The translations under genes were made by a program, and so were the position numbers. The notes below the pieces were generated by a model. That model saw nothing but the letters and a program-made list of their open reading frames with translations, did not search any database and was not told where the DNA came from. Below, in pieces: positions 42,974 through 45,646 of a stretch of DNA of 64,000 nt. The stretch spans positions 24,427 through 88,426 of the forward strand of contig CAXHJY010000643.1 of the NCBI GenBank assembly GCA_964016885.1, given 5' to 3'. The stretch's first letter is position 1. Each line of letters begins with the position of its first letter. The stretch is from Eledone cirrhosa. Lineage: Eukaryota.

Positions 42974-42978
<5 letters not shown>

Positions 42979-43088
42979 AAAATATTCAAGACCCCGGGGT
43001 GTTGAATATTTTCCTATTACCCACTCTAAGTATTGAGTACTCTGGTGCGTTATGGTCCATCTGGTTCCTTACCACAATTCCCTTGTTA
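42974..43088 (+). mobile_element. Family J element with fold-back centred on CCCC|GGGG
   Basis: ATAGGAAAATATTCAAGACCCC|GGGGTGTTGAATATTTTCCTAT then family J tail. Confidence 0.85.
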
Positions 43089-43400
43089 TATATATATATA
43101 TATACAAAGCAGAGTATATATATATAAGTATTGAATACTTAGTTCAATACTTATATATATATATAAAGTATTGAACTAGTATATATATATATATAAGTAT
43201 TGAACTAGTATATATATATATATATATATACTAGTTCAATGTATATTTAATCTTGATAATTTGTATAATTTTGTATAATTTTGTACATAGATCTGTTGAA
43301 TATGCATACCAATTATAACACATATATACCCTAGAAACGATCGTTAAATAATGAACTTTTTTTGTTTAATATAAGGAATTGTTTATTCATTATTTGTTTA

Positions 43401-43549: not shown

Positions 43550-43612
43550 TCTGCTATGTATTGAGTACCTTACTTACTGTGGTTACCCTCGATTGAACCC
43601 GGGGTAAACTTA
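43549..43612 (+). mobile_element. Family C 3' fragment
   Basis: CTCTGCTATGTATTGAGTACCTTACTTACTGTGGTTACCCTCGATTGAACCCGG. Confidence 0.8.
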
Positions 43613-45067: not shown

Positions 45068-45559
45068 TATATATATATATATATACATATTATATATATA
45101 TATATACATATTATATATATATATATACATATTATATATATATATATATACATATTATATATATATATATATACATACATATATATATATTACCGATTCC
45201 CTAGAGAATAAGGGTTCGACTGCTATGTATCAGAGGGGGGGGGGAGCCTCTCCTTGTAATCGATAATACAGTAGTTAGGGAACACAAACATGTGTAGGGA
45301 TGGACTATCAATAAATATCTTTCGTTTCAGTCGTTTTTGGGGGGGGAAATAAAGAGACGTCTTTGTCACTGTAGCCTAGAATAGACCAAACGTCTTTCCA
45401 ACATGTCTTCCACGCCATCTTCCGGGTCAGCCATTCTGTCTTCTAGGACCAGTAGGGAGGAGGGGGAGGGGGAGAATATACGCATGGCCCTCTTACACTC
45501 TCACATCGGAGATCGCTTCCCCACCCTTTCCTTACTCCGTCTAGGTCCTGACTCTTTGC

Positions 45560-45640
45560 TTATTACCCGCTCTACTACCACCCGTATTGAGTACTCTGGT
45601 GCGTTATGGCCCATCTGGTATCTTACCACACCCTCTTTAT
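45560..45640 (+). mobile_element. Family J 3' fragment
   Basis: TATTACCCGCTCTACTACC..GTATTGAGTACTCTGGTGCGTTATGG. Confidence 0.75.
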
Positions 45641-45646
45641 ATATAC

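What the first reader, a model, noticed from the sequence alone, without database searches (positions are those of the whole stretch)
42974..43017. Inversion breakpoints map to the predicted self-cleavage site
The family J cleavage site is predicted at GUC^GGGGUC (16375/16376). At 42995/42996 a fold-back palindrome is centred exactly on CCCC|GGGG. At 48409-48428 the antisense segment ends exactly at GACCCC. At 17335 the sense segment restarts at GGGGTC. Family C at ~50621 has its antisense arm ending at GGCCTC (the complement of ^GAAGCC), and the family F sense arm (8511) starts ~4 nt after ^. Inference: ribozyme cleavage defines the 5' end of the RNA template, and the cDNA end folds back or switches template there. 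This would be genomic evidence that the ribozymes act in vivo during transposition.
Basis: partly seen in the sequence, partly recalled or inferred. Interest (0 to 1): 0.82.

Follow-up and report, generated by a model that had tools for sequence, protein, structure and literature searches.

The report
Penelope copies record two RNA ends
This 44-base palindrome is one of tens of thousands of short two-armed copies of a Penelope-type jumping gene; about nine in ten arms run straight through the predicted ribozyme cut and stop some 41-45 bases before it, likely at the capped start of the RNA, while 1-3 in 100, like this one, stop exactly at the predicted cut, which would be a rare genomic trace of the ribozyme cutting in living cells.

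Summary
The palindrome is real (42 of 44 paired, centred on the predicted GUC^GGGG site), but the general claim fails. It is a two-armed insertion of an RT+GIY-YIG Penelope-like element (family J, 28,727 exact tails in the genome). In 125 tail-selected copies, 187 of 210 arms pass the site; 128 stop at -47..-33, in loop II of the hammerhead, with an untemplated G at -41 that points to a capped start. Family C: 1 of 124 arms at the site; F: no peak. Yet a small class is sharp: both arms stop exactly at +1 with untemplated A/T between them (10 A/T, 0 C/G single-base spacers of 50 listed), and the partner arm also stops there in 12 of 18 cases against 6 of 125 overall. That is best read as a cleaved RNA end (about 70%). 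Against it: a lineage with a mismatched C3-A8 core gives such ends as often. The scan noted cap-ended, and rarer cut-ended, Penelope stubs before in other genomes. Partly supported.

The parts
42977..42995 (-). Family J antisense arm: starts at the first fixed priming point beside (TA)n and ends at position +1 of the predicted hammerhead cut
42996..43014 (+). Family J sense arm from +1 (GGGG) to the first priming point; one substitution against the other arm
43015..43086 (+). One-sided tail between the two priming points (about 80 nt in most copies, shortened here), followed by (TA)n
16301..16471 (+). Family J copy of the common kind: arms meet at 16331/16332 (-45/-44); A(-41) of the likely start is 16335; predicted cut 16375/16376 is crossed by the sense arm
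16331..16339 (+). Likely capped transcription start zone (A-45 and A-41) inside loop II of the hammerhead
   Evidence: start and cap are inferred
16345..16381 (+). 3' half of the type I hammerhead: stem II 3' strand, GAAA, stem III, GUC^, stem I 3' strand. The 5' half (CCCC, U3-A8 core) is absent from short copies and present in long ones
17212..17351 (-). Family J copy; long arm crosses the site, short arm ends within a 3-nt microhomology that spans +1
48412..48500 (+). Family J copy; antisense arm ends at +1 or within a CCC overlap with the tail (3 of 18 J1b arms ending at +1 are of this form)
48523..48698 (-). Family C copy with whole hammerhead; both arms cross the predicted cut
50543..50654 (-). 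Family C copy; sense arm starts at or near the predicted cut within a possible 4-nt microhomology, antisense arm crosses it
8234..8770 (+). Family F two-armed copy of a roughly 540-bp non-coding hammerhead unit; antisense arm holds the whole hammerhead, sense arm starts 4-6 nt after the cut

Best explanation
The palindrome is a two-armed insertion of a Penelope-like element whose arms both stop exactly at the predicted hammerhead cut, a 1-3% minority class that likely comes from self-cleaved RNA, whereas most arms pass that site and stop 41-45 nt upstream at what is likely the capped RNA start. Steps: (shown) both arms begin at two fixed points about 80 nt apart, each beside (TA)n, and meet head to head; (shown) arm ends pile up at -47..-33, with an untemplated base complementary to G right after A(-41); (shown) a second, single-base peak at +1 has untemplated A/T and coupled ends; (inferred) both ends of a cut (TA)n prime a cDNA, each runs off the 5' end of the RNA, and the two are joined by microhomology or end joining; (inferred) the start lies in loop II, so the 5' end of the normal transcript holds only half a ribozyme and cannot cut itself in cis; (inferred) the +1 class comes mostly from the complete hammerhead of the 3' repeat, cut in roughly a tenth of the templates used, leaving a short 3' piece with both priming points; (inferred) cleavage is a side route that makes dead stubs, not the step that defines the element's template.
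For: Element identity: 718-aa ORF with YRDD and C-terminal GIY-YIG-like motifs between repeated hammerheads, atlas neighbours 0.97-0.99 with HTH_animal, GIY-YIG, RVT_1. Main end: 128 of 210 arms at -47..-33, 187 pass the site; 2,729 double-arm joins there; in J1, 2,416 arms leave the template right after -41, and of 100 listed 49 add C, 43 G, 8 T, while of 100 listed one base further only 1 adds C, about 1,180 against 50 arms. Minor end: of 50 J1b short palindromes listed, 12 are blunt at +1 and 14 have both arms at +1 with an untemplated spacer, 1 has that form at -2; single-base spacers are A/T in 10 of 10, which CpG decay of a templated base cannot give; 464 J1b arms leave the template right after +1 against 76 after -5, and 19 of 30 inspected are true ends; the partner arm is also at the site in 12 of 18 against 6 of 125. 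The class scales with arms that hold the whole hammerhead (J1b 307/2,695, J1 102/950) and not with all inverted arms (11,167 and 10,956). Hammerhead: core invariant except N7 and position 3, 94% of 305 cells paired against at most 54% when slid.
Against: The natural dead-core control was not met: 700 of 950 long J1 arms have a mismatched C3-A8 core, and by a linked tail marker (13 of 15 U3 arms, 0 of 13 C3 arms) only 4 of 23 site-ended J1 copies come from the U3-A8 lineage, 12 from the C3-linked one and 7 from a third lineage of unknown core. G (43 of 100) is nearly as common as C after -41, so the cap signal is not clean. No compensatory base-pair change in 17 copies; no Rfam hammerhead match; no Pfam match for the ORF. 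Family C has a canonical core and a near-whole ribozyme in its template yet no peak. In vitro, a lizard PLE used uncut RNA and no reads ended at its site (PMC11167929). Counts rest on exact patterns that favour young copies, and tallies come from the first 50-100 listed places.
Confidence: 0.7

Rival explanations
1. One reading: ribozyme cleavage defines the template 5' end in J, C and F, and breakpoints in general map to the cut.
For: The 42995/6 centre; a real +1 class in J.
Against: 187 of 210 J arms and 115 of 124 C arms cross the site; 4,389 arms hold a whole uncut J hammerhead; F arms run through tandem hammerheads.
Confidence: 0.03
2. Cap-ended majority as above, but the +1 class has no ribozyme cause: the enzyme stalls at the foot of stem III or at the G run, or a protein nuclease cuts or trims the RNA there.
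For: Stem III ends 2 nt from the site; the C3-A8 lineage gives +1 ends at the same rate per long arm; family C has none.
Against: Independent stalls would not couple the two arms (12 of 18 vs 6 of 125); J1 and J1b share stem III and have equal numbers of inverted arms yet differ threefold; untemplated additions fit a run-off end; the end falls on the exact base that the hammerhead fold predicts.
Confidence: 0.2
3. The +1 palindromes arise from microhomology or from deletion of the centre of longer hairpin insertions after integration.
For: CG across the site explains the blunt form; GAGCTC-centred palindromes (18 of 50) and GAC/GTC joins show microhomology is active; central deletion would couple both arms.
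Against: Spacers such as T, A, TA, TT, CAAAT match neither template and sit at one base only; nothing marks +1 in a perfect DNA hairpin that runs on to -35.
Confidence: 0.05
4. The -41/-45 pile-up is not a capped start but a splice acceptor, another cut, or joining favoured by the AT-rich loop.
For: TTTAG and TCCAG resemble acceptors; D. virilis Penelope has an intron that ends at its hammerhead (PMC4209133); ends spread from -47 to -33; G after -41 is common.
Against: No shared upstream exon follows the end in any inspected copy; extra C is specific to -41; TCATTT and TTAGTC fit the initiator consensus (recalled); Penelope has an internal initiator-type promoter in its pLTR (PMC2377424).
Confidence: 0.1

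Closest known systems
Endonuclease-bearing Penelope-like elements with pLTR, inverted 5' copy and one-sided tail (PMC8557442 passages; PMC3846280 passages)
   Same: RT plus C-terminal GIY-YIG ORF, tandem and inverted copies, tail on one arm, (TA)n targets, hammerhead in the repeat, palindromes at inverted joins.
   Different: Tail about 80 nt, not 30-40; tens of thousands of 120-210-bp stubs; joins resolved here to two defined RNA ends. PMC3846280 read such palindromes as self-priming on an antisense template.
Poseidon element of Anolis in vitro (PMC11167929, parts 1-2 of 4 read: main text and start of methods)
   Same: Both DNA strands extended, two internal start sites bounding the tail, uncut RNA as main template.
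   Different: That study found no reads ending at the cut; here a small class of genomic copies ends there. Both J start points are followed by UAU, complementary to a (TA)n primer end, whereas the paper reports no homology.
PLE minimal hammerheads incl. the U3-A8 variant (PMC4209133, parts 1-2 of 4 read)
   Same: Type I motif, G10.1-C11.1 pair, long stem II, palindromic loop III, U3-A8 core as in Schistosoma PLEs.
   Different: 6-bp stem III, 35-40-nt loop II that likely holds the transcription start; a large lineage with C3-A8.
R2 element, HDV-like ribozyme and 5' junctions (PMC3774820, abstract only)
   Same: Genomic 5' junctions read as a record of where a ribozyme cuts.
   Different: In R2 the cut defines the normal template; here it accounts for a few percent of ends and leaves dead stubs.
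D. virilis Penelope promoter (PMC2377424, passages)
   Same: Internal initiator-type start within the pLTR.
   Different: There an intron follows and the hammerhead lies downstream of the start; here the start appears to split the hammerhead.

Membership tests
EN+ Penelope-like element (family J) | Single ORF with RT and C-terminal GIY-YIG endonuclease | tested here: met
   L229 ORF with YRDD and VIY..AYIG motifs read by eye; atlas neighbours carry HTH_animal, GIY-YIG, RVT_1; Pfam scan itself gave no match
EN+ Penelope-like element (family J) | Direct pseudo-LTRs from partial tandem copies | tested here: met
   495-bp direct repeat with hammerheads 3,118 bp apart in L229; same layout in L230
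EN+ Penelope-like element (family J) | Inverted 5'-truncated copy and one-sided tail | tested here: met
   85 of 125 copies have an antisense arm from a fixed point; tail about 80 nt
EN+ Penelope-like element (family J) | Clade placement (Penelope/Poseidon, Neptune, Nematis, Hydra) | not tested
   no tree built
Type I hammerhead ribozyme | Core N3-UGA-N-N8-A, GAAA, UH with stems I-III | tested here: met
   17 long copies: positions 4-6, 8, 9, 13-15.1, 16.1 invariant; U3-A8 in 13, C3-A8 in 4; 94% of cells paired
Type I hammerhead ribozyme | Compensatory covariation or Rfam model match | tested here: not met
   0 of 18 pairs with a change on both sides; no hammerhead hit at gathering or at E<=5
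Type I hammerhead ribozyme | Self-cleavage at GUC^ | not testable with these tools
   only indirect genomic ends; dead-core control not met
R2-like ribozyme-defined template 5' end | Most full 5' junctions fall on the ribozyme cut | tested here: not met
   9 of 210 J arms and 1 of 124 C arms at -1..+3
Capped Pol II template | Extra untemplated G at one start base | tested here: met
   49 of 100 departures after -41 add C on the cDNA against 1 of 100 listed at the next base; RNA evidence not available
Non-LTR retrozyme (family F only) | Tandem non-coding unit with a type I hammerhead in each repeat | tested here: inconclusive
   head-to-tail units about 540 bp apart with one hammerhead each, read by eye in 30 loci; coding capacity and circles not tested

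The most novel reading that the evidence does not exclude
The genome holds a quantitative fossil record of a Penelope hammerhead cutting in the germ line: about one in ten templates with a whole ribozyme was cut, the element's promoter starts inside loop II so that the capped transcript carries only a substrate half, and that half can be completed and cut in trans by the 5' half of another copy, which would explain cut ends in the lineage whose own core is mismatched.
Probability: 0.3. Interest if true: 0.78.

Novelty: new variant of a known kind. Interest (0 to 1): 0.55.

Why it matters
The role of the hammerhead in Penelope-like elements is open: the founding paper states there is no in vivo evidence (PMC4209133), a later one calls its function unclear (PMC8557442), and the only in vitro system found it dispensable (PMC11167929). 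Insertion ends counted in one genome give a direct, testable answer for this family: the working template is capped and uncut, cleavage happens but is rare and yields stubs. They also name the exact bases to test (-45, -41, +1) and supply natural core variants. I found no paper that reports either end class for PLEs in searches, but the library lacks subscription journals and Lunse et al. 2016 could not be opened; this scan has noted similar ends in other genomes.

Tried and rejected
The repeat finder on the raw window was swamped by microsatellites; a masked self-BLAST replaced it. The first 30 loci were chosen by full match across the site, so they are biased and were left out of all histograms. 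The first arm parser was misled by the element's own hairpins and was replaced by a joint non-overlapping parse. The first structure string was out of register and was redone. The subfamily difference (41 of 50 blunt palindromes are J1b against 20 of 125 copies) first looked like a live-core versus dead-core control; it was rejected because the ratio follows the number of long arms and the tail marker shows no U3 enrichment. Rfam and Pfam gave nothing relevant. No RNA holder listed; no reads were laid. The bacterial promoter scan does not apply to this genome. A sequence look-up of earlier notes found nothing. One fixed fold-back cDNA was rejected because either arm can be longer. A trans complex of the 5' half with the start-initiated half folds as a hammerhead at -26.6 kcal/mol, which shows only that it is possible. 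Family F ends were read by eye, not parsed.

Full report
Numbering: +1 is the first G after the predicted GUC^ (window 16376); negative numbers run upstream. Subfamilies are named by the letters after GGGGTC: J1 (CTAC), J1b (TTAC), J2 (ATAC), J3 (TTGA, the finding's copy). Tallies marked 'listed' were read by eye from the first 50 or 100 places a search printed, which lie in order along the first contigs.

1. Observation. The 44-nt palindrome is there, 42 of 44 paired, centred on 42995/42996, with (TA)n on the left and a 72-nt tail plus (TA)n on the right. The other four coordinates are correct, but none is diagnostic alone: the CG across the site is self-complementary; 48428 overlaps a CCC in the tail; 17335 lies in a repeated CCG motif and its partner arm crosses the site; 50621 is a sense-arm start in a possible GAAG overlap with a partner that crosses the site; the F partner arm holds the whole hammerhead. 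Two copies in the window contradict the rule: 16331/16332 and 48590-48698.

2. What the element is. The window lies in a 3.0-Gb genome. A 33-nt J tail motif occurs 28,727 times. [quoted passage not shown] Pfam gave no match; atlas neighbours at 0.97-0.99 carry HTH_animal, GIY-YIG and RVT_1. Short copies have an antisense arm that starts at about +17 and a sense arm that ends at about +97, each beside (TA)n. This is the known Penelope layout with inverted copy and one-sided tail (PMC8557442, passages), and the two points match the two start sites found in vitro (PMC11167929, main text read). In the element both points are followed by TAT, which could pair with a (TA)n primer end (inference).

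3. The ribozyme. In 17 long copies the core reads N3-UGA-N7-A8-A9, GAAA, UC; N7 varies freely, position 3 is U in 13 and C in 4. Stems I-III pair in 94% of 305 cells against at most 54% when slid, with no compensatory change. The U3-A8 variant is described in Schistosoma PLEs (PMC4209133, results and discussion read). Rfam has no match.

4. Where arms end. Copies were chosen on the tail only (99, 26 more) and parsed against real long copies. Of 210 arms, 187 pass the site by 2 nt or more; 128 end at -47..-33 (mode -41), 32 at -32..-2, 9 at -1..+3, 14 downstream, 27 further upstream. Of 85 two-armed copies, both arms pass in 69 and both end at the site in 1. Joins carry an insert in 35, microhomology in 34, and are blunt in 16; the antisense arm is the longer in 29 and the sense arm in 13, which favours two separately primed cDNAs over one folded-back cDNA. 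Family C (70 of 2,089 tail matches): 115 of 124 arms pass, 1 ends at the site, 65 end at -56..-36, at the 5' edge of the hammerhead; all 20 short C palindromes were listed and none is blunt at the site, 1 has a 2-nt spacer there. Family F (30 of 475) is a tandem unit of about 540 bp with scattered ends, read by eye.

5. The main end looks like a capped start. 2,729 copies have both arms reaching -41 with 0-8 nt between. In J1, whose template continues with A on the cDNA, 2,416 arms leave the template right after -41; of 100 listed, 49 add C, 43 G, 8 T. One base further, 92 of 100 listed stay templated, 7 add G, 1 adds C. An extra C on the cDNA is what copying a cap G gives (recalled from L1 work; one search returned one paper, listing only). 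The G excess is unexplained in part (a C-42 lineage, or joins to GAATT). The sequence at -45 and -41 fits an initiator (recalled), and D. virilis Penelope has an initiator-type promoter in its pLTR (PMC2377424, passages). These bases lie in loop II, so a transcript from them lacks the catalytic 5' half.

6. A small class ends exactly at the cut. Blunt palindromes: 124, 0.4% of tails. With 1-20-nt spacers: 600; of 50 listed, 21-22 have both arms at +1 around an untemplated spacer, 18 are centred on GAGCTC, 7 are GAC/GTC joins, 3-4 other. Single-base spacers are A or T in 10 of 10. In J1b, allowing ends from +6 to about -10, 307 copies; of 50 listed, 12 blunt at +1, 14 both at +1 with spacer, 4 with one arm at +1, 9 GAC/GTC, 11 other, of which 1 has both arms at -2 around an insert. 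464 J1b antisense arms leave the template after +1 against 76 after -5 (43 T, 27 G, 6 A). Of 30 inspected, 9 are CpG changes, 2 are C-run slips, 19 true ends (18 independent); the partner ends at +1/+2 in 12, in the tail in 3, elsewhere or absent in 3, against 6 of 125 sense arms at the site overall (p about 3e-9). About 3% of J1b inverted arms belong to the class. In the 125-copy sample alone the excess at -1..+3 is weak (9 of 55 ends in -32..+36, p 0.005; not significant against a uniform spread). The finding's copy belongs to the blunt form but was not among the 124 because of its substitution.

7. Tests of the ribozyme cause. J1b and J1 have equal numbers of inverted arms (11,167 and 10,956) but 307 and 102 short palindromes. 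Arms with a whole hammerhead number 2,695 and 950, so the ratios are 0.11 and 0.11: the class follows templates with a whole ribozyme, as expected if it comes from the 3' repeat. Against: 700 of the 950 J1 arms have C3-A8. A tail marker separates the cores (13 of 15 U3, 0 of 13 C3 arms with a full tail). Among 30 fetched of 49 J1 site matches, 7 GAC/GTC or G-spacer rows were dropped; of the other 23, 4 carry the U3 marker, 12 the C3-linked tail, 7 a third variant seen in no long arm. So a perfect core in cis is not required. Residual C3-A8 activity, cutting in trans (the two halves can fold together) or a non-ribozyme cause remain. 4,389 arms were copied through a whole J hammerhead, so cutting is partial at best.

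8. Known and new. Layout, two start points, hammerhead and uncut template are published. Ends as a record of ribozyme cutting are known for R2 (PMC3774820, abstract). Palindromic joins were earlier read as self-priming (PMC3846280, passages). bioRxiv 10.64898/2026.07.22.740005 (part 1 of 5) and PMC6765202 (passages) add nothing on ends; supplements were not read. My searches found no report of cap- or cut-defined ends in PLE insertions; Lunse et al. 2016 was not held. Earlier notes of this scan report the two-armed layout in this genome and cap-ended, rarely cut-ended, stubs in other genomes; my reading was written before I saw them. Particular here: the start inside loop II, coupling of the two arms, scaling with whole-ribozyme templates, and the unmet dead-core control.

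9. Verdict. Observation partly confirmed, interpretation partly supported. Interest 0.55; new variant of a known kind; confidence in the two-end model 0.7 (capped start about 0.85, ribozyme cause of the +1 class about 0.7).

Noticed in passing
G000:C1:91473158-91493817: Five J1b hammerheads on one strand 3,542-3,543 bp apart plus one opposite: a multi-unit tandem arm, copied through several intact ribozymes or duplicated later.
   Followed up: no
J1 long arms, L334-L358: A lineage of at least 700 arms amplified with a C3-A8 mismatch in the core, so a canonical core is not needed for spread.
   Followed up: partly
L229:2909-2912 and 2989-2992 region; window 43015-43017, 43087-43089: Both priming points are followed by TAT in the element, complementary to a (TA)n primer end.
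   Followed up: partly
G000:C1:65061358, C1:66966195, L076: A few insertions have arms with different subfamily letters, suggesting two different RNA molecules in one event.
   Followed up: no
window 8234-8770; L250, L253, L255, L258, L260: Family F is a roughly 540-bp tandem hammerhead unit with longer-than-unit arms and Penelope-type ends, retrozyme-like.
   Followed up: partly
window 48590-48698; Family C arms stop at the 5' edge of stem I, so its template holds nearly the whole canonical hammerhead yet is copied uncut.
   Followed up: partly
J and C tails, window 43028-43042 and 43559-43573: Two otherwise unlike families share the motif TATTGAGTAC in their tails, perhaps a protein-binding signal.
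   Followed up: no
window 13876-14006, 16726-17065, 17374-17433, 48772-49092, 51321-51749: Further inverted pairs from other repeat families.
   Followed up: no
window 45537-45646: Older, diverged J-like tail without an inverted arm.
   Followed up: no
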